Shown here: positions 951-16,199 of the stretch, one piece after another
Position numbering within the stretch: the first letter of the stretch is position 1
Layout: each line of letters opens with the position of its first letter
Origin: Escherichia coli
GTDB lineage: Bacteria; Pseudomonadota; Gammaproteobacteria; Enterobacterales; Enterobacteriaceae
Direction: 5' to 3' (one strand)
Assembly: GCF_003790525.1 (NCBI RefSeq)
Contig: NZ_CP033636.1
Length of the DNA: 64,000 bases
Position numbers and translations under genes: made by a program
The notes under the pieces: generated by a model
Seen by the model: only the letters and a program-made list of their open reading frames with translations
Database searches by the model: none
What the model was told of the DNA's origin: nothing

Positions 951-961
951 AAAGTTACTTT
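951..961. repeat. AAAGTWACTTT palindrome copy
   Basis: exact aaagttacttt, 65 bp from the previous copy. Confidence 0.6.
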
Positions 962-1117
962 TGCGTCATCCAGATGCACTGCCGCCATTTTGCATTCTGT
1001 ACGTTGGTTGCTTTCTCACTTGATGTCTCTTTTAACAGGCAAATTATCACTTTATCCGACCGGACCTTGTAGGCTGAATCCGTAGAATAAGGCTATAACC
1101 TATTCCCGGAGCATCAT

Positions 1118-3574
1118 ATGCGTAAAACTCTAATTGGCTGCATGGTTGCAACTGCCCTTGCTACTGTATCTTCGGCACATGCTCAGGTATTTAGCTACTC
1201 ATTTACAGATACCAATAAGGCTGTTCGGAATATCAAACCTGCAACACAAACATATCTTAATCCCGCTGGTGTTTTGACTCTGAACTTGATATCGGGTCTT
1301 GATCGGTACGAGCGAGTGACGGTCACACGAGACAGCGATAAAAAGGTTATGTATTCCTCCGTCTCGACCAAAACGAGCGTTGCAGATCGTATCGTTGCTG
1401 CCGATGGAACAGAATACTATGGAAAGGATATGGTTCTACCGGCGCTCGGAGAAGGGACCTTTACTGTAGTCAATGAAACTCTGGATATTCGCCAGACTGT
1501 AGTGAGCACATCTACTTATCATTTCATCGTTGATACAACTCCTCCACGCTATAAGAGTATTTATCCGAGTCAAAACGCAGGTTACGACATGGTACTTTCT
1601 GGGCCACTTTGGGAGTTGGGCCGAGGCGGTAGTGGCCAGTTTTCTATATTTGCAGACGGTATTGAGGATGCTAGTGGAATTGACAAGATCCGTCTTGTCA
1701 TTAAACGAAGTAATGGTTCTGTGGTCTCCGACAATAACCTGAGTTATGACACAGCCAATAAACGTGCGTTCTATCCGTGGATTAAAGATATGAACACCCA
1801 GGCTGGCATGCCCTCAAGTGATCTTGATGAAGAATTCACCTTCAATTTCATCGTTACGGACCTGGCAGGAAATACGCTTAACATTCCTCCCCAGCGGTTT
1901 TTATATGACGATCAAATGGGAGAATTTACGCCATTTGCAGTTCATGACTCACGTGTAAGCACCAGTGTTGTACCCGGCATTTCTTCGGGATACGTCCCGT
2001 TTAAACGAGGCCTTACAGTGCTGGAAAACCCCTACAAGTTGGTTATACGTATCCCAAGAACTAACTGGAAGCCATATCGAAATGGTGGCATGAGCATTAC
2101 CAATAACTATGGCGGAGTACAGGTCCTTTCCGAAGATGCCACCTATGTCTACGTGGAAGTTAAGCTGCCACAGGGTGCCTTAGATGGAAACTACTATAGA
2201 CCTGTGAATACATATCAATGGTCTGGAGGAGATCTTGGTCAGTATGCCAGCTGGCTCAACTGGGATCCTGCCTCTGTAAAGAGTCCGGCTTGGGGAAGTT
2301 CACCCATAGAACGACAAAAGGCTGATGGAACATGGTTCAACAGCGTAAACTGGAACCTGTTCAAGGCATCTGATATGCCTATAAAACTTACTAATATCCG
2401 ATTCAATGTACAGGCCAGGCCATATGATCAAAAAATCACTGGCGGAGCAACATGCAGTATTCCAGCTGGCTCAACAACCTGTACCGTCTCTTTGCCCCAG
2501 GATATTATAAATGGCACTACCGGTTATCTTCATAGTGGCTATGAAGTAAGGTCAACCACCGAAGCAACCTTCTTTGCCCCTATATGGGAGAATATAGCCT
2601 GGCATACACTGGGTCCCTCCGTCACTGGATTTGATTACAATGAAACCACCAACATTCTCCAGGTTTACGTGAATCAACCTGGAGATGGTTCATATTTCGA
2701 CCATGTTTATGTAAATCGAGTTTGGTTGTCAGATAAAAACCGTAACAACGCAGAAATAAGCGTAACCGGCAAACAAACAGGTAGAAATATGGCGTCTGGG
2801 AACTACACGTATGAGTTCAACATGAAAGAGGTACCAGAAGGCAGTTATAACGTGGTGATTAATGCCCAAGATACATTCAACAATACCGGTAACCTCCCTT
2901 ATCAAACAGTTGTCGTTGATAATACAGCACCATCTGTAAGTATTAGCTACGAAGGAAAACCGATCAGCAAAAACGTAACAGTATATGGGCTGGAGAACGT
3001 CCGTATACAGCTCACCGATGCTCTAACTAAACCATCCTTAAGCCGTATGACTCTTCGCGGTGGCCCTGTTTCTGATGCGGTGGAATTGTCTTGGGTGAAT
3101 CTGGGAAACAACCTGTATGCACCTAATTATCCCAAGATCTTTCCGTCTCTTAATGAAGGCGAAACATACACTCTCACAGTTCAGGCCAAAGATGAGATGA
3201 ACAACGTTAAAGAAAGCTCAGTCGAATTTAACTACCTTCCAAACAATCTCGTCAGGCTAGAGAATCTGAAAACCTTAGCTGTCAATGCTTCTCTCAAAAC
3301 ATCTGACAATACTGCTCTGGCTGTTCTGTATGCCAGCCAGCTGCGTAAAAAGGATGGTTCAATCGCTACAGGGCTTCAGGACGCAGTGCTTACTGTCCGT
3401 AAGGACGCTGCATTCGGCGTGACTGTAAATGGCGTTTCTGCGATGCCAGGTGAAAGCAAAGAGCTTCAACTGGATTTGGGGCTCGGGGACAGCCGTAGCT
3501 TTCCTATTTTCCCTGCTGTATCCGGCCTTACTGGCAGATCTGAGTTCATGATTAACATTGAAGAATTAAAATAA
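1118..3574 (+). CDS. secreted large Ig-like-domain protein, paralog A
   Basis: 818-aa ORF; signal-peptide-like N-terminus MRKTLIGCMVATALATVSSAHA; DxTxP motifs (VDTTPP, VDNTAPSVS) typical of bacterial Ig-like domains; conserved N- and C-terminal blocks shared with 7768..10188 and 13809..16199. Confidence 0.6.
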   Translation: MRKTLIGCMVATALATVSSAHAQVFSYSFTDTNKAVRNIKPATQTYLNPAGVLTLNLISGLDRYERVTVTRDSDKKVMYSSVSTKTSVADRIVAADGTEYYGKDMVLPALGEGTFTVVNETLDIRQTVVSTSTYHFIVDTTPPRYKSIYPSQNAGYDMVLSGPLWELGRGGSGQFSIFADGIEDASGIDKIRLVIKRSNGSVVSDNNLSYDTANKRAFYPWIKDMNTQAGMPSSDLDEEFTFNFIVTDLAGNTLNIPPQRFLYDDQMGEFTPFAVHDSRVSTSVVPGISSGYVPFKRGLTVLENPYKLVIRIPRTNWKPYRNGGMSITNNYGGVQVLSEDATYVYVEVKLPQGALDGNYYRPVNTYQWSGGDLGQYASWLNWDPASVKSPAWGSSPIERQKADGTWFNSVNWNLFKASDMPIKLTNIRFNVQARPYDQKITGGATCSIPAGSTTCTVSLPQDIINGTTGYLHSGYEVRSTTEATFFAPIWENIAWHTLGPSVTGFDYNETTNILQVYVNQPGDGSYFDHVYVNRVWLSDKNRNNAEISVTGKQTGRNMASGNYTYEFNMKEVPEGSYNVVINAQDTFNNTGNLPYQTVVVDNTAPSVSISYEGKPISKNVTVYGLENVRIQLTDALTKPSLSRMTLRGGPVSDAVELSWVNLGNNLYAPNYPKIFPSLNEGETYTLTVQAKDEMNNVKESSVEFNYLPNNLVRLENLKTLAVNASLKTSDNTALAVLYASQLRKKDGSIATGLQDAVLTVRKDAAFGVTVNGVSAMPGESKELQLDLGLGDSRSFPIFPAVSGLTGRSEFMINIEELK

Positions 3575-3930
3575 AGCAGGGCTGTTTTGCTGAAGCACAA
3601 CGGCCGCCTTCTGATGCGCCGTAGCCCATGTTGTTGCAAATCAGTCCGACGTTCATTGCGTAAGTAACGCTTACTGCGGACCATGGTAGTGATTAGACTC
3701 ACTACCATGGTCATTTCACCACATATCTTCTCTGCATTGCTCTTGTTGGGCAGACTAGTAACTCGTCACTAAATTGCAGCTTTTGTCTTGCTAAGTCGCT
3801 GGTATAACTGCACTACGAAATCGTCAAAAGATTTTATCCCTCATGTAGATCCAATAAATGATCCCAAAGGTGCCAGAGAGTACAAAGAAGATCCCGGTAC
3901 GCTGTAGGCCGCATGGTTACTGGGCTGGAG

Positions 3931-4470
3931 CATTGTCACTGACAACAGTAGCGACATAAGTGACAACGGGAGTGACTTAAAAGACAATGGTAGAGACTAT
4001 TTCGACGTTGGTAATGATTTTAAGTGACAATGGTAGTGAGGTTAGACTTAAACTTCCACTGTGAGGTAAGGTGACTCGCATTATTTAAATAAATCATTAC
4101 TTTCAATTACTTGCGACACGAGTCTGCATGTATGCTTCTATTTCTCAAAAATTTATCCACCGAAAATGCCTGTGGCTGTGATTTAGCTTTGACGACAGTT
4201 TTTATCAGGGAGGCAAGTTGAGACCTGTATAAGAACTAAGCATTTATTTATCCCCATTTTCCACAAGGTAGTTCCAATAATTAGTACCTTAGTGTTCCTG
4301 ATAGATCAAAAGAGATCCCCGCTGCCTCCAGGCCAGACGGCACAAGGCCTGAGACGTGATCAGTGACAACAGTAGTGATTATTTTGACATTAGTAGTGAT
4401 TATTATAACGTTGGTAATGAGTTTTTTGACATCAGTAGTGATCAGAGCGACAATAGTAGTGACTTTTCAT
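3931..4470. repeat. upstream iteron clusters, candidate oriV
   Basis: two clusters (about 3931-4080 and 4360-4470) of direct repeats of the form TGACAAYRGTAGTGA at roughly 20-bp spacing, flanking an AT-rich stretch and a DnaA-box-like site, immediately upstream of repA. Confidence 0.65.
4153..4161. promoter_or_regulatory. DnaA-box-like site
   Basis: ttatccacc, one mismatch from the TTATCCACA consensus, between the iteron clusters. Confidence 0.4.
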
Positions 4471-4681
4471 TAGATCTTTTTAACTTGATCTGATCCGTTG
4501 TTGATAAGAGTTGCAGGTCATTGTATGCAAAGAGTTTTTGCCAAGTTTTAATGAGTGGAGTCGTTTTTTTAGGTAGAACTTATGCACAGATATGGATCAT
4601 CACAATGATCCATCCAGTGACATAGAGTTCGCTGGGGCTTACTATTCACCAATCTGTTTACACATTCAGTGATAACTTATT

Positions 4682-5770
4682 ATGACTAAAGAGAAAGATA
4701 CTGAGCAGCAGGACCTGGTCACCAGGGCTTTCTCTGTTAGAGAGAAAGAATCAGGTAAAGACATCATTTTGCGTCCTAACAGCAACCGTACGGTGCAGTC
4801 TATTGCTTTGATGCGGCTCGGGCTGTTCGTCCCATCACCAAAGAGTGTGGGGCGTCAAAATCGGGAATATAAAACGGTTGGCTTTGACGCAACGAAAGAG
4901 TTACAGACGCTCTCTTTAATGGAGAGCGAGGGGTTCACCAATATTTCAATTGTCGGTGAGCGTCTTAATATGTCAGTAGATTTTAAGACGTGGATGGGCA
5001 TCATTCGAACCTATGCCAATCATCCGATTAACAATGACACGATAAGCTTAAAATTCACTGAATTCCTCAAGCTATGTACGCCTGAAAATTATCGCTCATC
5101 TACAGCGTCCAGAAAACGTATAGACGCCTCCTTACGCAGGTTAGCATCCGTTACCTTGTCGTTCACCAGTAATAACTCGTCCAAAGTCTATACAACGCAT
5201 CTGGTACAGTCTGCCCTGTTAGACCCGGAATCAGATCAGGTTGTCCTTCAGGTTGATCCTAAGATTTTCGAGCTCTATCAATACGATCATAAGGTTTTGA
5301 TGCAGCTGAAGGCAATTAAGGAGTTGGCCAAGAAGGAAAGCGCCCAGGCTCTCTATACGTTCATAGAGTCATTACCGCCAAATCCTATACCGATATCCCT
5401 TACTCGGCTGAAAAATCGTCTGAACCTCAAAACACGAGCAAATAGTCAGAATGCTACCGTGAGAAAGGCTCTTGAAGAGTTGGCATCGATAGGATACCTC
5501 AAGTACACCGAAATTAAGAAAGACGGAAAAGTATACTTCCAGATTCATAAGCGGGATCCCGATCTGAATTTGAACAATACTCAGCCTCCTTTAGAAGTGG
5601 TTGAAGATGAAGAAGAGAACTCAGGGTCTTCTGTTTTAGAAGGTGAGTTATGCCCACCAGCTGACCCGATTGACGGCGATGATGTTCTTACCGTCCATGA
5701 TTTAACCGCTGAAGAACTGCGCTATATTCGTAGTCTTCGAAGCCAGAAAAAGAACAGCAACGCCAGCTAA
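4682..5770 (+). CDS. repA: iteron-type replication initiator RepA, RepFIB/RepHI1B-like
   Basis: 362-aa ORF; blocks VQSIALMRLGLFVP, DFKTWMGII and RESAQALYTFIESLP match the RepFIB-type RepA family as I recall it; iterons on both sides. Confidence 0.8.
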   Translation: MTKEKDTEQQDLVTRAFSVREKESGKDIILRPNSNRTVQSIALMRLGLFVPSPKSVGRQNREYKTVGFDATKELQTLSLMESEGFTNISIVGERLNMSVDFKTWMGIIRTYANHPINNDTISLKFTEFLKLCTPENYRSSTASRKRIDASLRRLASVTLSFTSNNSSKVYTTHLVQSALLDPESDQVVLQVDPKIFELYQYDHKVLMQLKAIKELAKKESAQALYTFIESLPPNPIPISLTRLKNRLNLKTRANSQNATVRKALEELASIGYLKYTEIKKDGKVYFQIHKRDPDLNLNNTQPPLEVVEDEEENSGSSVLEGELCPPADPIDGDDVLTVHDLTAEELRYIRSLRSQKKNSNAS

Positions 5771-6010
5771 AGTTAACCCGGCGGTTTAGGCTCCGGGTGC
5801 TAAATTACTTCTTCGATTTTCGTTAGTCCCAGCCCGCTCTTTCACGTCAACGGTAATGAGTCAAAAGTCATTACCGTTGTCATTGTTCTCTACCACCCTA
5901 TGTAGATCGAGATTGCGAAATTCAACGCTTTCTCCTGAGTCACCTGTTAACACCCGGTTTCTACGCTTTACTTCATTGGCCAGTACATCCAACGGAAAAT
6001 ATCGTAACGG

Positions 6011-7600
6011 GGTGACAATGGCAGTGAGTTGACCCACTCACTACCATCGACATTCAAATCCCGGCTTCTCTGGTAGCTATAGTGACAATGGTAATGATGT
6101 GTACCTTACTGGCATTGTCATTGTCCTCCGAGTGTGCGTTCAGCTTTGGGAGGACACCGGAACTTAATGCGGCGAGTCACGGCCATTGTGAATCTCGATT
6201 GGATTGGCGAATACGGCTTCCGGTTGGGCCAGATGTCAATGGTTATGCTTCATCCAGCTCATTACTGTAGTCATTGCCGTTCAGTTGAGCTGATGCTCCT
6301 CTCATTCTATATGGCGACAACGGTAGTGAGCCCAGAAAGTGACTACCGTTGTCATGGCCGTCCAGTAGAGCGGGTCAACCTCTTAACTCACAGGGTGACA
6401 ACGGTATTGAGCCCAGAAAGTCACTACCGTTGTCATGGCCGTCTGGTTAAGCAGATCATCCTCTCAATTCACAGGGTGACAATGGTAGTGAGCCTATTAA
6501 GTCATTACCGTTGTCATTGCCATCCAGAAGAGCGGATGATCCTCTCAATTCATACGGCGACAATGGCAGTGAGCCCAGCAAGTCACTTCCGTTGTCATAG
6601 CCTTCCAGAAGAGCAGATGAGCCTCTTAATTAACAGGGTGACAACGGTAGTGAGCTCATTAAGTCATTACCATTGTCATGGACGTACAGCTGAGCTGCTC
6701 ATCCTCTCAATTCACACACCGACAATGGTAGTGAGCTATTAAAGTCACTACCATTGTCATATACGTCCAGTTAAGTGGACCATCCTCTCAATACACACGG
6801 TGACAACGGTAGTGAGCCATTAGAATCACTACCGTTGTCATTGCTTTTCAGGTGCACTGATAAGGCTCTCAATAGACACGACGACAATGGCAGTGAGCAA
6901 TTAGAGTCACTACCGTTGTCATTGCTTTCAGCTGAGCTGATAAGGTACGTCATTTACACGATGACAATGGCAGTGAGCCAATCGAGTCACTACCGTTGTT
7001 AATGCCGACCAACCGAGGGAAGGGTCCGCTCAAAGAACTGAGTGACAACAGTAGTGAGATCATCCAATCACTACCATTGTCAGCTTAAACCTGTAGGACG
7101 AAGAGGCTTGTCCGATAAAATGACGACAATGGAAATGAGCCTATCCATCACTACCACTGTCATTAAAGTCCAGCGGTTCAACGTTAATCAGTAGCTCCGG
7201 ATGACAATGGTTGTGAGTCAGGCAATTCCCAAGCATTAGGTGACAGCAGCGTAACACCTCTAAGCTCACTTCTGTTGTCAGGGGTTAGGGTATTGAGTCT
7301 CTACCGTCGTCAGTGTTTCTGAGACACCAGTATTGCAGATCACTACAATTGTCACTTAAATATCGACGGGGGAGTAGATGCAAGTGACTGGCTAACCAGT
7401 ACCAGTTTAGATTCAAAACGATCCCATCTTTGTGGATGCGCTTGAGTAAGCTCGTATGACGATATGTCAGAGAAGTGACAACAGGTGTGAGTTGCCGGAC
7501 TCACTCCCGTTGTCATCCCCGGTTGAAGGAAGAGAATCCCCGGGGCTGTATATTTACCAGGTATCCTTACTCAAGGGGTTCGACACTCACTCCCATTGTC
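6011..7600. repeat. downstream array of ~80-bp repeats, each with a palindromic RepA-site-like core
   Basis: about 18 units of GTGACAAYGGTAGTGAG-N7-9-TCACTACCRTTGTCA separated by related ~40-bp spacers; units decay toward 7600; same core as the upstream iterons. Confidence 0.8.
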
Positions 7601-7653
7601 GTAATCAACGAGTATGCATTGTCTTTTGAAAGCATCGCTGGAAACGTACGATT

Positions 7654-7664
7654 AAAGTAACTTT
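7654..7664. repeat. AAAGTWACTTT palindrome copy
   Basis: exact aaagtaacttt between the repeat array and the 3' end of the 7768..10188 gene. Confidence 0.6.
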
Positions 7665-7767
7665 TCTTTCGGTTCTTCCTTGCGAATCTCTGAAGACGTA
7701 CTGGCTGATCGGAGTCGAGGAGGGCAGTAAAATTGAAGCCGTCAGTTTTACTGTCGGCTCCGGGTAG

Positions 7768-10188
7768 TTACTTCAACTCGTCGATCTGAATCATGAATTC
7801 TGAGGTGCCAACTTTCCCATTTTCGGAAGGATAAACGGGTAACAGAAGATTATCCCCCTGGCCCATATCTATTTGCACCTCAACTGACTCGCCTGGAGCC
7901 GCCTGTGCCCCATTAAATTTAATACCGAAGGCTGCATCCTTCCGCACAGTCAGCGTTGCGTTCTGGACCCCTTTAGCAATTTCTCCATTTGTCTTACGCA
8001 GAACGTTAGTGGACAGGTACGCAAGTGGTACGCCATCTGTCGTTTTGAGAGGTGAACTGACCGACAATGTGCGTAGATTATGTAACTGCACAAGGTTATT
8101 CGGTAGATAACTGAACTTCTGAGTATAGGTTTTGGTATTCGACTGACTATCGGCAACTGTTACGCTAATTGAATAATTTTCAGATGGTTCGAAATTTGGG
8201 AACAGCCTCGGATACTCAGGCATGTATGTATCTTTGCCTGCCGGTGACCACGTAAGCTCAACGTTATCAGCTGTGGGGCCACCTACGAGCTGAAGACGGG
8301 TTATCCTCGGGGTTGTCAGATTATCTGCCAGAGCGATCCTGAGGTTCTCCAGGCCGTACACTACCGTATCGTCTTTTACCGGCTTTCCGTCGAATGTTAT
8401 GGCCACTGTCGGAGGAGTGTTATCCAGAGCAATTTCTCCGAAAGTTTTATTGGTCTGGTTCTGGAAGAAGTCCCTGATGTTGACCTCAACGTTGTATTTT
8501 CCTTCAGACTGACGGGATAAATCATAAGCAATCGTGTAGTTACCTGAGATACGAGATTTGATTACGCCTGTTGGTGACATCCGGGTACCGGTGTTCTTAT
8601 CGGAAAGATAAAATTCCCTCAATGAGACCGAGTCGAACCAGTTACCATCGCCTTCAAGTGACGCCAGTACATCCAGCTGCTTGTTAGTCTCGTCATATGA
8701 TATCGAGTTTATTACCGGCAGTTGTTTATTGTTCCAGCGTGTCATAATCCATTGCTCAGACCGCAAAATGGGATTGCTGATGCTGCGAACGAAGTAAAGG
8801 ATTCTATTGTAGCCCTGGGTACCCAAGGCCATATCAAACGTCTCAGGCGCTTCACACGAGGTTTTTCCTGCCGGAATGGTGCAGGTCGCCTTACCGCCGA
8901 TCTCCTGTGCAAAGGGCCGGGCTTCAACGTTAAAACGAAGTCGGGAAATTTTAATTGGCAGTCGTGATGAAGCCACACTCTCAAAATCCTTCCACTTAAC
9001 CCAGTTCCCCTTATCATCGAGGAAATCTACCCAGGTACCCGCAAATGCAGGCGTTTGGTTTGCAGATGGGTTTAGAACGAGGCTGTATGACGGATAATAC
9101 CCTCCCCACTGGCCAAAGTTCGCCATACGAGCCATATCCCCATTAATTGAGCCATAGGGAAGAGTCATTTCAACATAAGCATAAGTGCTGTCTACAGCTA
9201 TCTCTTTGGGGGCGGAATATTGATTGATGAACTGAAGCCCACCTTCTGAATAAGCACGGTAGTTAGATTTTGGGATCCGGTAGACTAATCGAATAGGGTT
9301 TTCGTTAACGACCATACCGGCTTTGTAAGCCGGATAATTAGAAACCCCGGGTACGACGCTGGAAGACGTATTTGGATCATGAACGGCCCACAGTGTCATC
9401 TCACCCAGCGTGTTGTCGTAGCGAAATTTTTGAGTTGGCAGCGTTCGGCTATTACCTGCGTTATCGAAGATAACAACTTTTGCAGTAAAGTCTTCATCCA
9501 GGTTGCTGTCTGGTATTCCGGTTCCCTTAACTGAATTCTTAGAGTAAGTGTGGTACATCTTTTGGCCGGATACGTCATACTGCATCTGTGTAGTGCTGTA
9601 GAGGCTACCGTCCTGCCTGTAAATATATATTAGGCCCTTATCAATACCATTTGCATCACTTACGCCCGAAGAGGTGAAGTCATACTGCCCCGTTGCCTCT
9701 AATCCAAGCTTCCACACGTCACCAGCGGTAGAGCCAGAACCAGTATTAGCGGTAAGAGCATTTGCCGCTGGAGGGGTGACATCAATTAGCCAGTTATAGT
9801 TATAGGTCGCTACAGGCTTCTGATTGAGATCTAACACGTTTATCTGAACGACAAATTTGCCTTCACCCAAAGCAGGCAAAGTTACTTTTTTGCCGTAGAA
9901 CTCACTACCGTCAGCAGCTGTTAGTCGGTCTGATACACCCGTCCGTGTAGTCGTAGTATTAAGAATGACAGTTCCAGTGTCTTTCGTGACTTTGACATTA
10001 ACGAAACGATCAAGACCTGAAATAAGTGTCAAAGTTACCGGTGATGCCGGATTAAGCATAAGACGAGAAGACGGGGCGTGGATCTCAATACCGTTCGTGT
10101 CCTTAAAGGCCGATTCATATATCTGAGCTGGGGCCTGAACAGACATACCGAGTCCGGCTACAGCAGTAATAAAAGCGAGATGTTTCAT
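7768..10188 (-). CDS. secreted large Ig-like-domain protein, paralog B
   Basis: 806-aa ORF; signal-peptide-like N-terminus MKHLAFITAVAGLGMSVQAPA; motifs IDVTPP and LDNTPPTVA; C-terminal block FSYLPNNLVQLHNLRTL...TVRKDAAFG shared with paralogs. Confidence 0.6.
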   Translation of the reverse strand: MKHLAFITAVAGLGMSVQAPAQIYESAFKDTNGIEIHAPSSRLMLNPASPVTLTLISGLDRFVNVKVTKDTGTVILNTTTTRTGVSDRLTAADGSEFYGKKVTLPALGEGKFVVQINVLDLNQKPVATYNYNWLIDVTPPAANALTANTGSGSTAGDVWKLGLEATGQYDFTSSGVSDANGIDKGLIYIYRQDGSLYSTTQMQYDVSGQKMYHTYSKNSVKGTGIPDSNLDEDFTAKVVIFDNAGNSRTLPTQKFRYDNTLGEMTLWAVHDPNTSSSVVPGVSNYPAYKAGMVVNENPIRLVYRIPKSNYRAYSEGGLQFINQYSAPKEIAVDSTYAYVEMTLPYGSINGDMARMANFGQWGGYYPSYSLVLNPSANQTPAFAGTWVDFLDDKGNWVKWKDFESVASSRLPIKISRLRFNVEARPFAQEIGGKATCTIPAGKTSCEAPETFDMALGTQGYNRILYFVRSISNPILRSEQWIMTRWNNKQLPVINSISYDETNKQLDVLASLEGDGNWFDSVSLREFYLSDKNTGTRMSPTGVIKSRISGNYTIAYDLSRQSEGKYNVEVNIRDFFQNQTNKTFGEIALDNTPPTVAITFDGKPVKDDTVVYGLENLRIALADNLTTPRITRLQLVGGPTADNVELTWSPAGKDTYMPEYPRLFPNFEPSENYSISVTVADSQSNTKTYTQKFSYLPNNLVQLHNLRTLSVSSPLKTTDGVPLAYLSTNVLRKTNGEIAKGVQNATLTVRKDAAFGIKFNGAQAAPGESVEVQIDMGQGDNLLLPVYPSENGKVGTSEFMIQIDELK

Positions 10189-10652
10189 TCTTATTCCCCT
10201 TTAGGTTTGGTGTTATTTTAAGCTTTTCCTAAAGGTCACTATGTTCGTAAAAGTATAAAAAACTTCTCCATATGGTGCTCGAAATTACAAATCTATAATT
10301 TGCCTTTCGACAAACCTTATTGTGCGTTCAGGACGTAAATCTTTCTTTTTGGAATTACATCTGACATTGCTGTGGTATCCAAACTGGCAACGATTGCAAA
10401 ACTTATAACATTAGCCTGAAACTATCGGCATCCACATATCGCATTAAGTGATGCTTTTACTTTGTGTAAAAAAGAATCAGGATAAATTAGGTATGACAGA
10501 TATAAATGCGTTAACGGACGGCATATATGAATCAAAACCTGGCGGTATTACGCCACCAGTCGAGAGGGGAGTGAACCTCAGTCAGTACGTCTACCTTCGT
10601 TCCGCAAGGCGCTTCTTGTTGTGAATTACAAACTGCCCTGGCGAGAACTGCA

Positions 10653-11264
10653 TCATTTCACCCCCAGCAACACACGTGCCTCTTCAACGGTTTGCCACGA
10701 AGGCATTGCTACGCCAGATTGACTGCCGTTGCCTCTGCGCTCACCGGTGTCACATTCTACATAAAGACGCATCAGCATCGCTTCTATTTCAGCGGCCCGG
10801 CTATTATCCATTACCAGTTCTGCTGCGCGTCGTAGCTGTTCTGGAATGTCATTCCACATTCCCGCACCACTTCTGTCTTTGTTAGTGAGCAAGTCTTCAA
10901 TAGCAGATGAAGCCATGTTAAGCAGGTCAGCCGAAACTAAAGGCATCGGCGGGGCGGTATAGAGGATTCGACGTCTTCCGCGTCTGTCTGGATCGTATTT
11001 ATCATAAAAAGCTTTGTTCACATCTTCCCAGTGCCACTGAAGTTGCCCGGTTGCGTCATGGTGGCAAAACTCGCACTGATAAACAGGCGCAATCGACATA
11101 ACTGCCTTTCCAATACGTGCCAGTACAGCAACTTCGTCAGCTCTAAGACTCATTGCTTCGCTTGGGTTACTACCCTCGGAAAATTCCAAAATTTGTTCAA
11201 TACGTTCTGGTGTGAAAGTGGTCATAGGCTTTGAAAACATATTTTTTCCAGTTGTGCTTACCAT
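10653..11264 (-). CDS. hypothetical protein, last gene of a minus-strand four-gene cluster
   Basis: 203-aa ORF downstream of the methyltransferase gene on the same strand; start codon uncertain. Confidence 0.45.
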   Translation of the reverse strand: MVSTTGKNMFSKPMTTFTPERIEQILEFSEGSNPSEAMSLRADEVAVLARIGKAVMSIAPVYQCEFCHHDATGQLQWHWEDVNKAFYDKYDPDRRGRRRILYTAPPMPLVSADLLNMASSAIEDLLTNKDRSGAGMWNDIPEQLRRAAELVMDNSRAAEIEAMLMRLYVECDTGERRGNGSQSGVAMPSWQTVEEARVLLGVK

Positions 11265-11284
11265 ATCATCAGGCCTTAAGAGCG

Positions 11285-11548
11285 TTAGCGAATAATTAAC
11301 AGGTCAGGACCAAAACTAAATCCTTCCCCCATACGGTCTTCATGACGGGAGACATATGCCTTACCGTATTTCTCCAGATCCTGTAAGCGATCTTTTGCCA
11401 GATTCCACGAGTATTCCTGGCCCCACACGGGTCCGTCACGCCCGTCAAAGCGGTCAGGTTTACAATTTGCTTTCAGAAGTGCGTAGACATGCTCCAGCGT
11501 GGGTAGCTGCAAAGCACTATTAGCCTGAGAAACGGCAGTATGCGTCAT
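11285..11548 (-). CDS. hypothetical small protein
   Basis: 87-aa ORF packed between neighbouring minus-strand genes. Confidence 0.4.
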   Translation of the reverse strand: MTHTAVSQANSALQLPTLEHVYALLKANCKPDRFDGRDGPVWGQEYSWNLAKDRLQDLEKYGKAYVSRHEDRMGEGFSFGPDLLIIR

Positions 11549-11641
11549 TTCTGTTCACTCTTTATTGATTTAGTCAGTTAAGCCGGTCAGGTAACTTTAA
11601 CCGGCTACTCGTATTAAGATTTCTTTCCGGTTGCTTGTCAG

Positions 11642-12466
11642 TTAGCGGCGAAGATCAATTTCAAGGCGGGCTGTTTTGACCTTTGTTCCGGACTCCCTAA
11701 ATGTATCATCCGGAAGAGGCGAAATTTGTCCGCCAAGTTGTTTGACTCGCTCCCTGAGCGCTTTTGTCAGTGTGTCTTCCCGGAACAATACCCCAGCTGA
11801 CAGAATGGCCTGTAAGCGACCTCGCTTAGCGAGCATTGCGATGGCATGCATGACATGTTTAACGTCAGAGCGTTTAAGGAATGGTGGATTCATAACGATA
11901 ACATCAAAAGTTTCATCGGGCTGGTACCCAAGAAAGTCGGTATGCACCAGCTCGGCCCCTGTGCTAAGGACACTATCGTTCTTCACTGCAAGGAATCGCT
12001 CATCGTTCAATTCGATCCCGGTAATCAATGCATCCGGAGCCGCCAGTTTTAAGGCTTTCAGAATGCGGCCATCACCAAACTCAGGCTCCAGAACACGTTC
12101 CCCGGCAGCTGGTTCAGCGCGTAGAACCATATCTGTGACTAAATTCTCAGGGGTAGGGAAGAAATTGAACAAATCACGTGGGATGTCGACCGAACCTGTC
12201 AGAATGATTTGCTCGATACGCTCAGCTGCATCCGCCGTAAAAATATGTGCCTGCTCTTTTCGGTTCCATTTGCCACCGGCAGCTTCCAGCACTTTGTTTG
12301 TCTTAACATAAATGCTGCGGTCGAGCTGGTCGGCCAGGAAAAGAAAGTTCCCTTCAGCACGGCAGCGAGATAAGACGTTCAGAACTTCAGTTGAGATTTG
12401 CATTAAAACTCCATTAAGAGGATTTACCCGCCTGGCGGCAGCGGGTTGGTTACTTAAACAGGACAA
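11642..12466 (-). CDS. N6-adenine DNA methyltransferase-like (SAM-dependent)
   Basis: 274-aa ORF with a glycine-rich SAM motif (LEPEFGDG) followed by catalytic NPPF (DVIVMNPPF). Confidence 0.65.
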   Translation of the reverse strand: MSCLSNQPAAARRVNPLNGVLMQISTEVLNVLSRCRAEGNFLFLADQLDRSIYVKTNKVLEAAGGKWNRKEQAHIFTADAAERIEQIILTGSVDIPRDLFNFFPTPENLVTDMVLRAEPAAGERVLEPEFGDGRILKALKLAAPDALITGIELNDERFLAVKNDSVLSTGAELVHTDFLGYQPDETFDVIVMNPPFLKRSDVKHVMHAIAMLAKRGRLQAILSAGVLFREDTLTKALRERVKQLGGQISPLPDDTFRESGTKVKTARLEIDLRR

Positions 12467-12483
12467 TTCAGATTTGGCCTTGG

Positions 12484-13248
12484 TTAGTCGGCAGACAACA
12501 GCAGGGATGGGCTGTTATAAGCGAAGCGGTCAACGGGAGCCTTCTCAAATCGCTGACCGCTTGCATCAGGGGTCAGAACGAGTCCGTTATGGGCGCAATG
12601 AATGTGGAGCAACATATCCCCGCCGGTGTTGATGTGTAAGGCAGGCACACCCTGATCGATTTCGAACATGACACCAAAACAGGGGTTACCTTCCTTGTTA
12701 ACAACTTCACAGTGGATGTTATGTTGGCCGGTAACGCTGACCTGATAGGCCTGACTGTCCTCTTCTCTCAGTGTTTCCTCCTCCAGGCGCCAGTCCTGAA
12801 GTGTGAGGCTAATTTCAGGGGTATCATGCTCCTTCTGAAGAGCCTGGATACCTTTACGGAACAGCTGCATCATTTCATGAGTAAGGCAGTCTTCCTCAGC
12901 TCCAAAATGTTCTTTCCAGCCTTCAGGATCTGCATACATCCAGACGTTTTTAGCGAGCGAAGGTAAGGAAGCATCAGGCTCTACAAGGAGGTGAGGGATG
13001 CTCTCTTTGATTCCGAGATAACGTACTGGCTGGCCGTTAAGCGGTAACCCATCCGGCACTGTAACTTCAGCTCCTGGCAAGACGACGCTGTTTACCAGAC
13101 CTCCACAATGTTCTGCCACCACCCGGCCTAAATCTGCCATAAACATCCGATGCTTTTCTGGTGAGTCCAGCTCACCAAGGAGTTCAGGTTTAAGCAGTAA
13201 ACCGGTAATAATCTCAGTCAGTTCACGAGGAGATACTAATTTATACAT
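12484..13248 (-). CDS. hypothetical protein, first gene of minus-strand cluster
   Basis: 254-aa ORF; RBS-like aaaggaaaa upstream of the start; 17-bp gap to the methyltransferase gene. Confidence 0.5.
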   Translation of the reverse strand: MYKLVSPRELTEIITGLLLKPELLGELDSPEKHRMFMADLGRVVAEHCGGLVNSVVLPGAEVTVPDGLPLNGQPVRYLGIKESIPHLLVEPDASLPSLAKNVWMYADPEGWKEHFGAEEDCLTHEMMQLFRKGIQALQKEHDTPEISLTLQDWRLEEETLREEDSQAYQVSVTGQHNIHCEVVNKEGNPCFGVMFEIDQGVPALHINTGGDMLLHIHCAHNGLVLTPDASGQRFEKAPVDRFAYNSPSLLLSAD

Positions 13249-13275
13249 TTTGTTTTCCTTTTCTGTGTTGGCTTT

Positions 13276-13311
13276 ATATTAACAATCCAGATGCACGAGC
13301 TAATAACCTCC
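13276..13311 (-). promoter_or_regulatory. island promoter module, minus-strand copy
   Basis: reverse complement reads GGAGGTTATTAGC-N19-TAATAT, positioned upstream of the 13248 start. Confidence 0.45.
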
Positions 13312-13808
13312 AGACAACTTTTTCAAAAATTATATACTTAAAGCAGGGGCTAATATGCGCAAGAAATGAATTTAGGAAGGATGGCTTCAAATTTAACTTT
13401 TTGGTTTTTTATTTTAGACGGACTTTAAAATAGCATCGCTGGTAAAATAATAAACATGGTTTATTTTTTGTTTGTATTGACAATCAAATGGGTAAAAATT
13501 AATTTACTTACATGGCGTATATTTAATGCCACCGTCCCGGCGGCACCGGGCATAAAAGGAAAACCATCTTGAAACCAATGCTCAAAAAAGATTTTTTTTC
13601 AGCTATTGAAAACCTTCTCAAAGCTGGCTTTCAACCTCGCTTTTACACTGTTAACAGTGGACGAATCGGTCTCATTACATTCACTGATAAAAATGGAACA
13701 AAACAGGTCCCGCCGGGCAGAAAAGAAAAACATTAAAATTAGCTATTTTCCCGAAAAGATCTCGAACACTGAAAAAGTATCATGGGGAACCTGATCAGGA
13801 GACAACCC

Positions 13809-16199
13809 ATGAAAATCAAACTAGCCCTGCTTATTGCATTTGCAGGTTTCAGCGCAGGAGCTTCCGCTGAAATCGCAGAATTCAGCTTTAAAGATACCCT
13901 GAACGTTAAAAAGACCGTATCGCCTGCATCCGTATGGATTAATCCGGTAACGAGCTTTGACGTTGCCGTTATTTCCGGTCTGGACCGTTATATTACGCTC
14001 AGTCTGCTGAAAAGTGACGGGAGCCTCATCTGGAGCACGAAAAGCAGCCTGGTTACCGTAGATGACCGTACCACATCTTCGACAGGCTTTGATTATTACG
14101 GCAAGACTCTGACCGTACCAGCGATGGGAGAAGATAGCTTCACCCTCAGAGAGGTGATTACCGACTTGCAAGGGAAGGAGGTCTCCCGGCAGGATTACCC
14201 GCTTGCAATTGACCGAACGCCTCCGGCAACGGGTACCATAAGTTATACGAGAAACGGGTGGAACTTTGGCAGCGAAGCGATCTTCACTTCAGTACCAGCC
14301 GGTATGCAGTACGCCAGCGTCCAGGCACTGGTCTTTAATGGACTGAGTGATAAAGGTTCCGGGCTTGCTAATGCTGAATATTTCATAACCGATGCCGCTG
14401 GAGTGGAGCGTAAAAAGCCAGCGGAAATTAATACAGTGGAAGGTAGCGTAACCGTTCAAGTCGCCGACGCAAGCAGCAATGCCCTGGCACCGGAAAACCG
14501 CTCTGAATATAAAGTGGGGATCTACCTTTATGACAAAGCGGGAAACAGGATCGAACTAAGCCGCCGAAGCGTAATTGATCGGGTTAAGCCTGACGATATC
14601 ATCCAGGTGCAGGACGCCACTACCGGATCATGGGTCACTTATCAGTCTGGCATGACCGTCTTCCAGAACCCTATTTCCGTACGGGTATTAAGGAAAAAAA
14701 GTGACTTTACTGCTGTTAACGGTTCCAAATATGGCTGGGCGGACTCGAATTTCCAGACGTCCGATAGCACTTATAATATTTATACTTTCAAATACATATA
14801 TCCCAATGTGGGGGATACTTATCATGAATTCCAGACTCTGGCAGGAGGAGTAAGACGAATTCATCATAACTCCCTCAACTTCACTCCAGCCCCGGCGATG
14901 GAAATAGCCCCGAAGATAGTGGCTAAAGAGATGTACCGGAGTGATACCAGTGAGTGGTTAACTCAGGCCTCAATCAGCGTTAAAACCGCCACCATTAGCC
15001 GCATAAAGGTAACCGCTGAACCCCGACCATACGTGCAAAAGTTCAGAACGGTAAAAAATGCAGCCTGGTTCTGCACTATACCTATCGGACAAAGTTCATG
15101 CGAGATGACGGTTAACTTCAACTACACCAGTGACAAAGGATTTGAGTATCTGCACCTTTACTCGGGAAAAGATGGTGACAGCATATTCGATGCGCTTGCT
15201 GGTAATTTTACGGTTATCTGGGATAACAACCCACCGGTGGTTAATGTCGCTCAGGTAAACAAGGCCTCCAAGACAATCACTATGACGGCCACCGATAATG
15301 ATCGCGTCAACGCCTGGAACATCAGCTACTGGGATACCAAAGTTTTCGAAGCCACCCTTAAAAATGCCCGGGGGGAACCTTTCACGCTGAAGCCTGTGAC
15401 CGTCAGTGAAAGCGATTATAAAACCAAAAACGCCACCTTCTCATACGCTGGTCTACCGGACGGGGATTATACGGTGGTTAGCGTCTCTGCCACGGATCTT
15501 GTTGGAAACACCGGAACCAAAACGCTTAATGCACCGCTGAAAATTGACTCAACGCTTCCGGTTATCGCGTTCAGTTTTAATGGCGCAGACGCAGAAGGAA
15601 AACTGGTTAAAGGGCTTGAGAACCTTCGCATAAGCGTTACTGATGCCTCTGGGGATGCTTCCCTGACATCGCTTCAGCTCGCTGGTGGACCTAACTCTGA
15701 AAAGGTCACCCTGGCATTCACGCCGTTATCCAAGGATGTCTTTATTCCGGAATACCCCAGAATCTTCCCCAACACTGACGAATCGGGACAGATGTATCAT
15801 CTGGAGGCACTGGCTATTGACGAATCAGGTAACCGGACCACTAAAACGCTTAATTTTACCTACCAGCCTGCGAATCTGATTATGCTGGATAATCTCAAGA
15901 CGCTGGCCACAGCCGTAGCACTGAAAGCAACGGACAACACGCCGCTGGCCATCATCCGAACCAGTGTGTTGCGGCGTCAGGACGGTTCTATCATTACCGG
16001 ACAGTTAAACGGAACCCTGACTGTTCAGAAAAATGCCCAGTTCGGCGTTACGGTTGCCGGAGTTACGGTCCAGCCTGGTGAAACTAAATCGCTGTCACTG
16101 GATCTTGGTAATGGTGAAGAGCGCACGTATCCCGTTACTCCCGCTGTAAGTGGTCAATCTGGCACGGCCACATTTGCTATAGAATTCCCTCAAACATAA
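13809..16199 (+). CDS. secreted large Ig-like-domain protein, paralog C
   Basis: ORF 13782..16199; likely start at MKIKLALLIAFAGFSAGASA (13809); motifs IDRTPP and IDSTLPVIA; C-terminal block FTYQPANLIMLDNLKTL...TVQKNAQFG shared with paralogs. Confidence 0.6.
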   Translation: MKIKLALLIAFAGFSAGASAEIAEFSFKDTLNVKKTVSPASVWINPVTSFDVAVISGLDRYITLSLLKSDGSLIWSTKSSLVTVDDRTTSSTGFDYYGKTLTVPAMGEDSFTLREVITDLQGKEVSRQDYPLAIDRTPPATGTISYTRNGWNFGSEAIFTSVPAGMQYASVQALVFNGLSDKGSGLANAEYFITDAAGVERKKPAEINTVEGSVTVQVADASSNALAPENRSEYKVGIYLYDKAGNRIELSRRSVIDRVKPDDIIQVQDATTGSWVTYQSGMTVFQNPISVRVLRKKSDFTAVNGSKYGWADSNFQTSDSTYNIYTFKYIYPNVGDTYHEFQTLAGGVRRIHHNSLNFTPAPAMEIAPKIVAKEMYRSDTSEWLTQASISVKTATISRIKVTAEPRPYVQKFRTVKNAAWFCTIPIGQSSCEMTVNFNYTSDKGFEYLHLYSGKDGDSIFDALAGNFTVIWDNNPPVVNVAQVNKASKTITMTATDNDRVNAWNISYWDTKVFEATLKNARGEPFTLKPVTVSESDYKTKNATFSYAGLPDGDYTVVSVSATDLVGNTGTKTLNAPLKIDSTLPVIAFSFNGADAEGKLVKGLENLRISVTDASGDASLTSLQLAGGPNSEKVTLAFTPLSKDVFIPEYPRIFPNTDESGQMYHLEALAIDESGNRTTKTLNFTYQPANLIMLDNLKTLATAVALKATDNTPLAIIRTSVLRRQDGSIITGQLNGTLTVQKNAQFGVTVAGVTVQPGETKSLSLDLGNGEERTYPVTPAVSGQSGTATFAIEFPQT

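What the first reader, a model, noticed from the sequence alone, without database searches (positions are those of the whole stretch)
1118..16199. Three divergent paralogs of a secreted ~800-aa Ig-like protein bracketing the replicon
ORFs at 1118(+), 7768(-) and 13809(+) share signal peptides, N-terminal blocks and a highly conserved C-terminal ~100 residues (FxYLPNNLVxLxNLKTL...TVRKDAAFG), with DxTxP motifs of bacterial Ig-like domains between. Their variable cores suggest diversification of a surface or periplasmic binding function. Large Ig-like proteins are known on IncHI plasmids and are linked to conjugation, but three paralogs interleaved with the replicon and a methyltransferase operon is unusual.
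Basis: partly seen in the sequence, partly recalled or inferred. Interest (0 to 1): 0.55.

Follow-up and report, generated by a model that had tools for sequence, protein, structure and literature searches.

The report
Three RSP2-family Ig-like proteins, IncHI2
The window is the backbone of an IncHI2 resistance plasmid, and its three ~800-residue secreted all-beta proteins are ancient, selectively maintained paralogs of RSP2, a protein known to help the related plasmid R27 conjugate; this is an ordinary conserved plasmid feature, but it contradicts a published statement that IncHI2 plasmids lack rsp2.

Summary
Three intact ORFs are present: IgA 1118-3574(+), IgB 7768-10188(-) and IgC 13809-16199(+). 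They are full-length paralogs (A/B 42%, A/C 28% identity). Each has a Sec-type signal peptide and the Pfam architecture DUF4165 + Big_3_2 + Big_3_3. Both ends are conserved and the core is variable.

The window is 100% identical to many IncHI2 plasmids, where PGAP annotates all three as "Ig-like domain-containing protein". They belong to the family of R27 RSP2, which is secreted, needs the T4SS for release, binds pili and flagella, and whose deletion lowers liquid mating about 100-fold. IgC falls in the RSP2 clade (39% identity, E 1e-174).

IncHI1 plasmids have the same A-rep-B-C locus. There, B is a pseudogene, and in R27 A is also cut by IS30.

- **Retention:** about 97-99% of roughly 1,050-1,120 IncHI2 plasmids with a match carry each gene essentially full length.
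- **Selection:** purifying (omega 0-0.12).
- **Gene conversion:** none detected between paralogs.
- **Other MOBH plasmids:** these carry 3-4 copies, or a single long form in which an RSP2-type module is followed by an RSP-type C-terminus.

This is a new member of a known kind. The arrangement is conserved, not unusual. The main new point is that the statement "IncHI2 lacks rsp2" fails at the protein level.

The parts
1118..3574 (+). IgA: 818-aa RSP2-family paralog, clade A. Signal peptide aa 1-22 (nt 1118-1183); DUF4165 aa 20-141 (1175-1540); Big_3_2 aa 142-264 (1541-1909); variable core aa 265-560 (1910-2797); Big_3_3 aa 561-717 (2798-3268); conserved C-terminal beta domain aa 718-818 (3269-3571).
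   Evidence: ORF; translation; Pfam E 5.7e-17 / 1.9e-38 / 1.7e-65. AlphaFold pLDDT 90.6, pTM 0.76, all-beta. 82% identical to pHCM1 paralog A.
7768..10188 (-). IgB: 806-aa RSP2-family paralog, clade B. Signal peptide aa 1-21 (nt 10188-10126); DUF4165 aa 21-138 (10128-9775); Big_3_2 aa 139-259 (9774-9412); variable core (9411-8545); Big_3_3 aa 549-705 (8544-8074); C-terminal domain aa 706-806 (8073-7771).
   Evidence: ORF; translation; Pfam. 75% identical to the pCF10-tmexCD1 ortholog. The protein is identical in a diverged IncHI2 lineage despite dS 0.018.
13809..16199 (+). IgC: 796-aa RSP2-family paralog, clade C, the clade that contains R27 RSP2. Signal peptide aa 1-20 (nt 13809-13868); DUF4165 aa 18-136 (13860-14216); Big_3_2 aa 138-257 (14220-14579); variable core (14580-15425); Big_3_3 aa 540-696 (15426-15896); C-terminal domain aa 697-796 (15897-16196).
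   Evidence: ORF; translation; Pfam. 39% identity to RSP2 over 788 aa, E 1e-174. NJ tree. AlphaFold pLDDT 92.0, pTM 0.79.
3941..6999 (+). Context: the RepHI2 replicon that A and B bracket. It has 21-bp iteron-like repeats at 3941-3998 and 4364-4442, repHI2 at 4682-5770, and 9.2 copies of an 81-bp repeat at 6259-6999.
   Evidence: Annotation of identical plasmids; TRF. RepHI2 is 38% identical to R27 RepHI1A, which occupies the same position between A and B.
10653..13248 (-). Context: a four-gene minus-strand cluster between B and C, made of hypothetical 203 aa, 87 aa, SAM-methyltransferase-like 253 aa and hypothetical 254 aa proteins. No evidence links it functionally to the Ig-like genes.
   Evidence: Annotation. 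The only NCBIfam hits are weak PrmC/HemK-type methyltransferase matches for the 253-aa protein. In IncHI1 the corresponding cluster lies downstream of RSP2 rather than between B and C.

Best explanation
IgA, IgB and IgC are three ancient paralogs of the RSP2 family: ~800-aa proteins with the DUF4165-Big_3_2-Big_3_3 architecture. They are core backbone genes of IncHI plasmids.

The likely mechanism has five steps.
1. Each protein is made with a cleavable Sec signal peptide and enters the periplasm. There a conserved Cys pair probably forms a disulfide.
2. Each folds into a chain of about seven beta-sandwich domains with no enzymatic domain.
3. As shown for RSP2 in R27, release to the cell surface depends on the plasmid's H-type T4SS and pilus (TrhC, TrhH, TrhA) and partly on the 1,430-aa protein RSP. 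IncHI2 plasmids also encode RSP.
4. Outside the cell the proteins associate with RSP, the conjugative pilus and flagella. This lowers motility and stabilises donor-recipient contact, raising transfer, especially in liquid.
5. The conserved ends (DUF4165, and Big_3_3 plus the C-terminal domain) would serve shared export and docking functions. The strongly diverged cores would give each paralog a different binding surface.

Shown here: family membership, orthology, intactness, purifying selection, fold, co-occurrence with rsp, and covalent fusion of the two module types in other plasmids. Taken from the literature for RSP2 only: export route, binding partners and the conjugation phenotype. Inferred: that all three IncHI2 proteins act this way, and the division of labour between ends and core.
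For: **Replicon and annotation.** The window is 100% identical to IncHI2A/MOBH/MPF_F plasmids that carry three annotated Ig-like proteins.

**Architecture and fold.** All three share the same three Pfam domains. PMC8730810 describes the same architecture for RSP2 (DUF4165 aa 23-142, a Big domain at 143-254 and a Big domain at 537-693). The AlphaFold models are confident and all-beta. Only generic Ig/FnIII and adhesin matches such as SiiE appear, and no enzymatic fold.

**Relation to RSP2.** IgC is 39% identical to RSP2 over the full length, E 1e-174. The tree gives three orthologous clades, A, B and C, across IncHI2, IncHI1 and an IncHI1B-type plasmid, with RSP2 in clade C.

**Synteny.** The locus is the same in R27 and pHCM1, and RepHI2 is homologous to RepHI1A.

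**Selection.** Within IncHI2, B has dN 0 against dS 0.018, C has omega 0.049 and the A fragment 0.042. A compared between pHCM1 and pCF10 gives 0.118. Synonymous sites between paralogs are saturated (pS about 0.8) even in the conserved C-terminus, and no exact nucleotide match exceeds 12 nt, so the conservation reflects selection rather than gene conversion.

**Retention.** A is found in 1,122 plasmids (1,094 nearly full length), B in 1,112 (1,082) and C in 1,047 (1,037).

**Partner present.** rsp is annotated in the Tra2 region of an identical IncHI2 plasmid.

**Link to RSP and the tra genes.**
- In an Aeromonas MOBH plasmid, four tandem paralogs directly precede a full-length RSP homolog next to tra genes.
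- In IncC and pCAR1, a single 1,828- or 1,982-aa gene lies inside the tra operon. For the IncC protein, the N-terminal ~800 aa match this family and residues 822-1819 match RSP residues 371-1404, E 1e-63.
- RSP residues 166-386 are homologous to the family's central domains (hhalign 97%).

**Family-wide conservation.** Conservation is highest in DUF4165, Big_3_3 and the C-terminal domain. In the ten sequences checked, the conserved Cys pair is present in all and is usually the only cysteine content of the mature protein. 62 of 74 family members have signal-peptide-like N-termini.

**Experimental basis for RSP2** (PMC8730810): it is found in the secretome and periplasm; its export needs TrhC, TrhH and TrhA and partly RSP; it co-immunoprecipitates with RSP; it binds pili and flagella; and deleting rsp2 lowers liquid mating by about 2 log.
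Against: No expression, localisation or phenotype data for the IncHI2 proteins were found in the searchable literature.

The genes sit outside Tra1 and Tra2, next to the replicon. No shared upstream regulatory sequence was detected, and promoter-like sites are not enriched.

R27 conjugates with only the clade-C copy intact, and all IncHI1 plasmids examined have lost B. A and B are therefore dispensable at least in that lineage.

IgC is only 39% identical to RSP2, whereas clade A is 82% identical between IncHI1 and IncHI2. Functional equivalence of IgC and RSP2 is therefore not assured.

A Sec signal peptide combined with T4SS-dependent release is mechanistically unexplained even for RSP2.
Confidence: 0.7

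Rival explanations
1. The three genes are functionally redundant copies that provide dosage or back-up for one conjugation-accessory function, with no specialisation of the variable cores.
For: R27 transfers with only the clade-C copy (RSP2) intact, pHCM1 has A plus C, and B is a pseudogene in IncHI1. Occasional IS disruptions of single copies occur in IncHI2 (IS3-family in A; IS2, IS26 and IS91).
Against: The paralogs are very old: synonymous sites are saturated and the cores are 12-18% identical. Each orthologous clade is nonetheless kept under strong purifying selection. Each is retained nearly full length in about 97-99% of IncHI2 plasmids that match. Purely redundant copies are not expected to persist like this. 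The clades also evolve at different rates: dN between subgroups is 0.12-0.13 for A, 0.20 for B, and 0.34 (against pCF10) to 0.65 (against RSP2) for C.
Confidence: 0.17
2. They are general surface adhesins or motility and biofilm modulators that benefit the host or plasmid persistence, and are not part of the conjugation machinery.
For: In IncHI they lie outside the tra regions. The fold is a generic adhesin-like chain of beta-sandwiches. RSP and RSP2 bind flagella and reduce motility (PMC6764697, PMC8730810).
Against: In IncC, pCAR1 and the Aeromonas plasmid the homologs lie inside or adjacent to tra operons, fused to or next to RSP homologs. Every locus inspected is on a MOBH and/or MPF_F plasmid. 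Deleting rsp2 lowers transfer about 100-fold, and RSP2 release needs pilus genes.
Confidence: 0.08
3. They coat the H-pilus as a shield or decoy against pilus-specific phages or recipient defences, and the variable cores reflect an arms race.
For: RSP and RSP2 decorate the pilus (PMC8730810). The core diverges strongly while the ends stay conserved. Clade C evolves fast.
Against: There is no direct evidence. Within-lineage comparisons show purifying selection, not diversifying selection. Known phenotypes concern transfer efficiency and motility.
Confidence: 0.04
4. They are decaying or non-expressed relics.
For: B is a pseudogene in IncHI1 and A is cut by IS30 in R27. No expression data exist for IncHI2.
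Against: The reading frames are intact, with Shine-Dalgarno-like sequences read from the sequence. Omega is 0-0.12. The genes are retained nearly universally at 95% nucleotide identity or more. The structure models are high-confidence.
Confidence: 0.01

Closest known systems
RSP2 (ORF R0055) of IncHI1 plasmid R27 (Huttener et al. 2022, mSphere, PMC8730810)
   Same: Size is about 800 aa. There is an N-terminal signal peptide and the DUF4165 + Big_3_2 + Big_3_3 architecture. Homology runs the full length: IgC 39%, IgA 35% and IgB 32% identity. The genes sit in the same backbone locus next to the HI replicon, on a plasmid that also encodes RSP and an H-type T4SS.
   Different: IncHI2 keeps three intact paralogs, whereas R27 has only this one intact. 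IgC has diverged strongly from RSP2 (dN about 0.65). A and B belong to different, older clades. No experimental data exist for the IncHI2 proteins. The paper states that IncHI2 plasmids lack rsp2, which holds only at the level of close sequence similarity.
RSP (ORF R0009), the 155-kDa IncHI conjugal transfer protein (Huttener et al. 2019, PLoS Genet, PMC6764697)
   Same: It is a secreted all-beta Big-domain protein on the same plasmids. RSP residues 166-386 are homologous to the central domains of the family (hhalign 97%), and it has a weak Big_3_3 match. It interacts physically with RSP2.
   Different: RSP is about 1,430 aa and lies in Tra2. It lacks DUF4165 and Big_3_2 and carries a roughly 1,000-aa C-terminal region that A, B and C lack.
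Long DUF4165 Big proteins of IncC (IncA/C) plasmids (for example the 1,843-aa ALG87338.1 of pKAZ3; 1,828 aa in pSH111_166) and the 1,982-aa pCAR1 protein
   Same: The N-terminal ~800 aa form a complete module of the same family, including the conserved C-terminal domain. The plasmids are MOBH/MPF_F. The pKAZ3 protein is secreted and promotes conjugation at 25 C (PMC8730810).
   Different: Each is a single gene inside the tra operon, between traV/traA and dsbC/traC in IncC and directly after traV in pCAR1. In the IncC protein the module is followed by an RSP-type C-terminus. These plasmids have no paralog array.
Giant fibrillar or RTX adhesins with BIg repeats, such as Salmonella SiiE
   Different: A, B and C have a Sec signal peptide. 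Their roughly seven domains are heterogeneous rather than tens of near-identical repeats. They are about 800 aa rather than thousands.

Membership tests
RSP2 family (plasmid DUF4165-Big proteins of MOBH conjugative plasmids) | Domain architecture DUF4165 (N-terminal) + Big_3_2 + Big_3_3 in a protein of about 800 aa | tested here: met
   Pfam matches for all three. IgA: E 5.7e-17, 1.9e-38 and 1.7e-65. IgB: 9.2e-14, 5.5e-27 and 3.2e-63. IgC: 4e-13, 3e-22 and 1.6e-40. RSP2 architecture as described in PMC8730810.
RSP2 family (plasmid DUF4165-Big proteins of MOBH conjugative plasmids) | Full-length sequence homology to R27 RSP2 | tested here: met
   IgC against RSP2: 39% identity over 788 aa, E 1e-174. 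tblastn bit scores against the RSP2 gene are C 511, A 374 and B 335. IgC and RSP2 share indels.
RSP2 family (plasmid DUF4165-Big proteins of MOBH conjugative plasmids) | Orthology to RSP2 itself (same clade and same backbone locus) | tested here: met
   This is met for IgC only. The NJ tree places HI2_C, pCF10_1 and RSP2 in one clade. The locus is syntenic next to homologous HI replicons. IgA and IgB fall in separate paralogous clades, whose IncHI1 members are an intact or IS30-cut A and a pseudogenised B.
RSP2 family (plasmid DUF4165-Big proteins of MOBH conjugative plasmids) | N-terminal Sec-type signal peptide and periplasmic or extracellular character | tested here: met
   The N-termini have a basic start, a hydrophobic stretch and an AxA-type site. 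A crude heuristic finds this in 62 of 74 family members. A conserved Cys pair is present in all ten sequences checked. No dedicated signal-peptide predictor was available.
RSP2 family (plasmid DUF4165-Big proteins of MOBH conjugative plasmids) | Encoded on a plasmid with a MOBH relaxase, an H/F-type T4SS and the partner gene rsp | tested here: met
   The identical plasmid NZ_CP047545.1 is typed IncHI2A, MOBH and MPF_F. It carries rsp (1,434 aa) in Tra2 together with the trh genes.
RSP2 family (plasmid DUF4165-Big proteins of MOBH conjugative plasmids) | T4SS- and RSP-dependent release, binding to conjugative pilus and flagella, requirement for efficient conjugation | not testable with these tools
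   Shown only for R27 RSP2 (PMC8730810). No data on the IncHI2 proteins were found.
RSP (R0009) proteins | About 1,430-aa protein with the long RSP-type C-terminal region (SiiE-like end), encoded in Tra2 | tested here: not met
   A, B and C end after the conserved C-terminal domain and lack the region that aligns between RSP, the IncC long form and the Aeromonas RSP homolog. Only the central domains are shared.
Giant T1SS/RTX fibrillar adhesins (SiiE-like) | No Sec signal peptide, and many near-identical tandem BIg repeats | tested here: not met
   Sec-type N-termini are present. The domains are heterogeneous and map to different Pfam families. Structural similarity is only at the single-domain level. 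A C-terminal T1SS signal was not specifically tested.
Inverse autotransporters (intimin/invasin) | N-terminal outer-membrane beta-barrel domain preceding the Big domains | tested here: not met
   Pfam finds no barrel or LysM domain; the N-terminus is DUF4165. The models are chains of beta-sandwiches.

The most novel reading that the evidence does not exclude
The three proteins are interchangeable adaptor heads for one stalk protein. In this reading each docks through its conserved Big_3_3/C-terminal end to RSP. The covalent version of that arrangement is seen in the IncC and pCAR1 long forms, and the operon version in Aeromonas. The diverged cores would give IncHI2 donors three different binding specificities, for example own pilus, flagella and recipient envelope, which would tune mating efficiency or recipient range. 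If so, the model plasmid R27, with only one intact copy, shows only a third of the system.
Probability: 0.25. Interest if true: 0.6.

Novelty: new member of a known kind. Interest (0 to 1): 0.35.

Why it matters
IncHI2 plasmids are major carriers of mcr-1, mcr-9 and multidrug resistance. The Barcelona group has proposed plasmid-encoded Big proteins (RSP) as surface antigens for vaccines and nanobodies that block spread (10.1101/2023.12.12.571265).

That literature treats RSP2 as specific to IncHI1. Recognising three conserved, selectively maintained RSP2-family proteins in IncHI2 has three consequences:
- It corrects that picture.
- It gives three further candidate surface targets.
- It shows that R27 is a degenerate model for this part of the transfer apparatus, because A is cut by IS30 and B is a pseudogene.

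The fusion of RSP2-type and RSP-type modules in IncC offers independent genomic support for the reported RSP-RSP2 interaction. None of this changes the basic understanding of the family, so the finding is useful but incremental.

Tried and rejected
- **Promoter and terminator scan of 1-17000.** Counts equal those in shuffled sequence, so it is uninformative.
- **Alignment of the three upstream regions.** No shared regulatory block; the alignment is essentially noise.
- **NCBIfam.** No family matches any of the three proteins. The only hit is a sub-threshold PorU fragment.
- **Gene conversion as the cause of the conserved C-terminus.** Rejected: pS is about 0.8 in that segment and there are no long identical nucleotide runs.
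- **The 794-aa ORF at 25637-28021 as a possible fourth paralog.** Rejected: it is a PAPS-reductase-family protein.
- **The 202-aa ORF at 6134-6742.** It lies in the 81-bp iteron array and is not annotated in relatives, so it is probably not a gene.
- **Literature searches** by protein accession, by DUF4165, and by IncHI2 plus Ig-like. Nothing was found on the IncHI2 proteins. The library is incomplete, so this is not proof of absence.
- **dN/dS between IncHI subgroups or between paralogs.** Synonymous sites are saturated, so only dN is interpretable.
Full report
**What is there.** The window contains three uninterrupted ORFs at the reported positions (translations).
- IgA: 1118-3574(+), 818 aa.
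- IgB: 7768-10188(-), 806 aa.
- IgC: 13809-16199(+), 796 aa. The mechanical ORF starts at 13782, but 13809 has AGGAGA 7 nt upstream and is the start PGAP uses.

The three align end to end. A/B are 42% identical and A/C 28%.

Identity by segment, given as A-B / A-C / B-C:

| Segment | A-B | A-C | B-C |
|---|---|---|---|
| DUF4165 | 45% | 31% | 36% |
| Big_3_2 | 33% | 17% | 12% |
| Central region | 38% | 14% | 18% |
| Big_3_3 | 45% | 37% | 37% |
| Last ~100 residues | 54% | 51% | 40% |

Each N-terminus looks like a Sec signal peptide: a basic start, a hydrophobic stretch, and AHA|Q, APA|Q or ASA|E. In the ten family sequences checked, the conserved CxIPxGxxxC pair is present in all. It is the only cysteine content of the mature protein in most of them, though RSP2 and one Aeromonas copy have extra cysteines.

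**What replicon this is.** The first 20 kb is 100% identical to many IncHI2 plasmids of E. coli and Salmonella. A total of 1,298 plasmid records match. In an identical record the plasmid is typed IncHI2A, MOBH and MPF_F. The three genes are annotated "Ig-like domain-containing protein" and repHI2 lies between A and B. The replicon has 21-bp iteron-like repeats upstream of repHI2 and nine 81-bp repeats downstream. Between B and C lies a four-gene minus-strand cluster. One of its products resembles a SAM-dependent methyltransferase.

**What the proteins are.** Pfam finds DUF4165, Big_3_2 and Big_3_3 in all three, with strong E-values. PMC8730810 describes this architecture for RSP2 (ORF R0055), a 794-aa protein of the IncHI1 plasmid R27.
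- IgC is 39% identical to RSP2 over 788 residues, E 1e-174.
- AlphaFold models of IgA (pLDDT 90.6, pTM 0.76) and IgC (92.0, 0.79) are confident and entirely beta after the signal helix. They form a chain of about seven beta-sandwich domains.

**Evolutionary context.** R27 and pHCM1 (IncHI1) have the same locus. It runs DUF4942 gene, paralog A, HI replicon, paralog B, RSP2, then a RelE/ParE gene further on. RepHI2 is 38% identical to RepHI1A, so the replicon sits between A and B in both subgroups.

A tree of 16 full-length homologs resolves three orthologous clades shared by IncHI2, IncHI1 and an IncHI1B-type Citrobacter plasmid:

| Clade | Window gene | Closest orthologs |
|---|---|---|
| A | IgA | 82% to pHCM1 A |
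| B | IgB | 75% to the pCF10 copy |
| C | IgC | 61% to the pCF10 copy, 39% to RSP2 |

tblastn shows how IncHI1 has decayed:
- In both R27 and pHCM1, B is a pseudogene. Pieces matching residues 1-262, 253-350 and 608-806 remain, with a frameshift, and about 257 residues are missing.
- In R27, A is also split by IS30 near residue 705.

Three paralogs is therefore the ancestral IncHI state. IncHI2 preserves it, and the model plasmid R27 keeps only the clade-C copy. PMC8730810 states that RSP2 is present in IncHI1 but not in IncHI2 plasmids. At the protein level this does not hold.

**Are they functional genes?**
- *Within IncHI2.* I compared the window with the diverged pEL-ars2 lineage. B has 0 nonsynonymous change against dS 0.018. 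C has omega 0.049. The A fragment has omega 0.042. Clade A compared between pHCM1 and pCF10 gives omega 0.118.
- *Between paralogs.* Synonymous sites are saturated everywhere, including the conserved C-terminus (pS about 0.8). No identical nucleotide run exceeds 12 nt. The conserved ends therefore reflect selection, not gene conversion.
- *Retention.* Each gene is found at 95% nucleotide identity or more, and nearly full length, in almost all IncHI2 plasmids: A in 1,094 of 1,122, B in 1,082 of 1,112 and C in 1,037 of 1,047. IS insertions are occasional.
- *Rates.* Amino-acid divergence between subgroups differs by clade. dN is about 0.12-0.13 for A, 0.20 for B and 0.34-0.65 for C.

**Wider family and the link to RSP.** tblastn finds homologs in 3,057 plasmid records. 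A profile search of 1.84 billion representative proteins finds 444 clusters at E <= 1e-30. These fall into two size classes, about 800 aa and about 1,820-1,870 aa. Every locus I inspected is on a MOBH and/or MPF_F plasmid.
- A Klebsiella plasmid has three tandem copies plus a fourth.
- An Aeromonas plasmid has four tandem copies beside traD and traK. These are followed directly by a 1,399-aa protein that is a full-length homolog of R27 RSP (27% identity, E 3e-132).
- In IncC and pCAR1 a single 1,828- or 1,982-aa gene sits inside the tra operon, after traV/traA in IncC and after traV in pCAR1.
- For the IncC protein, the first ~800 residues are a complete module of this family. Residues 822-1819 align to RSP residues 371-1404, E 1e-63.
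- RSP itself shares the family's central domains (hhalign 97%, E 6e-11) and has a weak Big_3_3 match.
- An identical IncHI2 plasmid carries rsp in Tra2.

Gene fusion in one lineage and operon linkage in another independently support the RSP-RSP2 interaction reported by co-immunoprecipitation.

**Most likely mechanism.** For RSP2, the following has been shown experimentally (PMC8730810):
- It is found in the periplasm and the secretome.
- Its release requires TrhC, TrhH and TrhA and partly RSP.
- It binds the conjugative pilus and flagella.
- Deleting rsp2 increases motility and lowers liquid mating by about 2 log.

I infer the same route for the three IncHI2 proteins. They would be exported by Sec, released to the surface in a pilus- and T4SS-dependent way, and associate with RSP, pili and flagella. 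The result would be stabilised mating contacts.

Family-wide conservation is highest in DUF4165, Big_3_3 and the C-terminal domain, and lowest in the centre. This fits shared docking and export functions at the ends and paralog-specific binding in the core. The C-terminal domain is internal in the long forms, so it is a structural domain and not a terminal secretion signal.

Family membership is secure. The conjugation role in IncHI2 is inferred. Functional specialisation of the paralogs is a hypothesis.

**Rivals.**
- Pure redundancy is disfavoured by the age of the paralogs combined with clade-wise purifying selection and near-universal retention. The loss of B, and of A in R27, in IncHI1 shows that some copies are dispensable.
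- A role unrelated to conjugation is disfavoured by the tra-embedded and RSP-fused relatives.
- Pseudogenes are excluded by the selection data.
- A pilus-shield or arms-race role has no direct support.

**Verdict.** The feature is a conserved, annotated backbone element of IncHI plasmids and a member of a known family. Three modest new points emerge:
1. IncHI2 has three RSP2-family genes, including the RSP2-clade copy.
2. R27 is a degenerate representative of this locus.
3. Long forms in other MOBH plasmids combine RSP2-type and RSP-type modules in one protein.

**Caveats.**
- Intactness across about 1,100 plasmids is inferred from coverage and identity, not from ORF checks.
- PLSDB gene tables omit pseudogenes.
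- The dN/dS values rest on a few pairwise comparisons with few substitutions.
- The tree is a simple NJ tree.
- No signal-peptide predictor or multimer modelling was available.

Noticed in passing
window 6259-6999 (also 3941-3998 and 4364-4442): There are 9.2 copies of an 81-bp repeat, each with inverted iteron-like cores (TCACTACCGTTGTCA / TGACAACGGTAGTGA), downstream of repHI2. 21-bp repeats with the same core lie upstream. The 202-aa GTG ORF at 6134-6742 lies inside the array, is not annotated in identical plasmids, and is probably not a gene.
   Followed up: partly
window ~715-719, inside the 5' end of ORF 119-745(-): Most 100%-identical IncHI2 relatives carry a 1,331-bp IS2 with a 5-bp duplication here, about 400 bp upstream of IgA. 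The window lacks it. The insertion truncates the divergent 208-aa ORF and could affect IgA transcription.
   Followed up: partly
L002 (R27) 3926-7602 and 10633-12248; L003 (pHCM1) 16039-17654: In IncHI1, paralog B is a pseudogene with a frameshift and about 257 residues deleted internally. In R27, paralog A is additionally split by IS30 near residue 705. R27 therefore keeps only RSP2 intact, while pHCM1 keeps A and RSP2.
   Followed up: yes
L007 (IncC pSH111_166) 7887-13373; L008 (pCAR1) 7842-13790: Single 1,828- and 1,982-aa genes lie inside the tra operons. In the IncC protein, a complete RSP2-type module is followed by a region homologous to RSP residues 371-1404 (E 1e-63). This is a Rosetta-stone style fusion of the two IncHI proteins.
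   Followed up: yes
L006 (Aeromonas caviae pSS332-218k) 15110-28906: Four tandem ~800-aa paralogs are followed directly by a 1,399-aa full-length RSP homolog (27% identity, E 3e-132), next to traD and traK. This looks like a compact operon version of the system.
   Followed up: partly
L010 (Enterobacter ludwigii pEL-ars2) 1011-3673: In this IncHI2 plasmid IgA is truncated to its C-terminal 456 residues by an IS3-family insertion. Other records show IS26 in B and IS91 in C. Individual copies are occasionally lost.
   Followed up: no
window 16634-28021 and onward: Downstream of IgC the backbone is rich in small hypothetical genes. It also has a RelE/ParE toxin, a flavin reductase, an orphan site-specific DNA methyltransferase (21203-22453), a 794-aa PAPS-reductase-family protein (25637-28021), an HNH endonuclease and a Hok toxin. 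In pEL-ars2 traD and mobH follow directly after the site-specific methyltransferase. This resembles a leading or anti-restriction region, but that was not analysed.
   Followed up: no
window 15192-15290 (IgC residues 462-494): There is a sub-threshold Pfam match to SWM_repeat, "putative flagellar system-associated repeat" (E 0.079). It is not significant, but it is curious given that RSP and RSP2 bind flagella.
   Followed up: no
clade C versus clade A (window IgC and IgA against L003 and L004): The clades evolve at very different rates. Between IncHI1 and IncHI2, A is 82% identical but C/RSP2 only 39% (dN 0.12 against 0.65). Within IncHI2, however, C is under strong purifying selection (omega 0.049). 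The cause is unknown; it could be episodic diversification, or the two could be non-orthologous members of an older array.
   Followed up: partly
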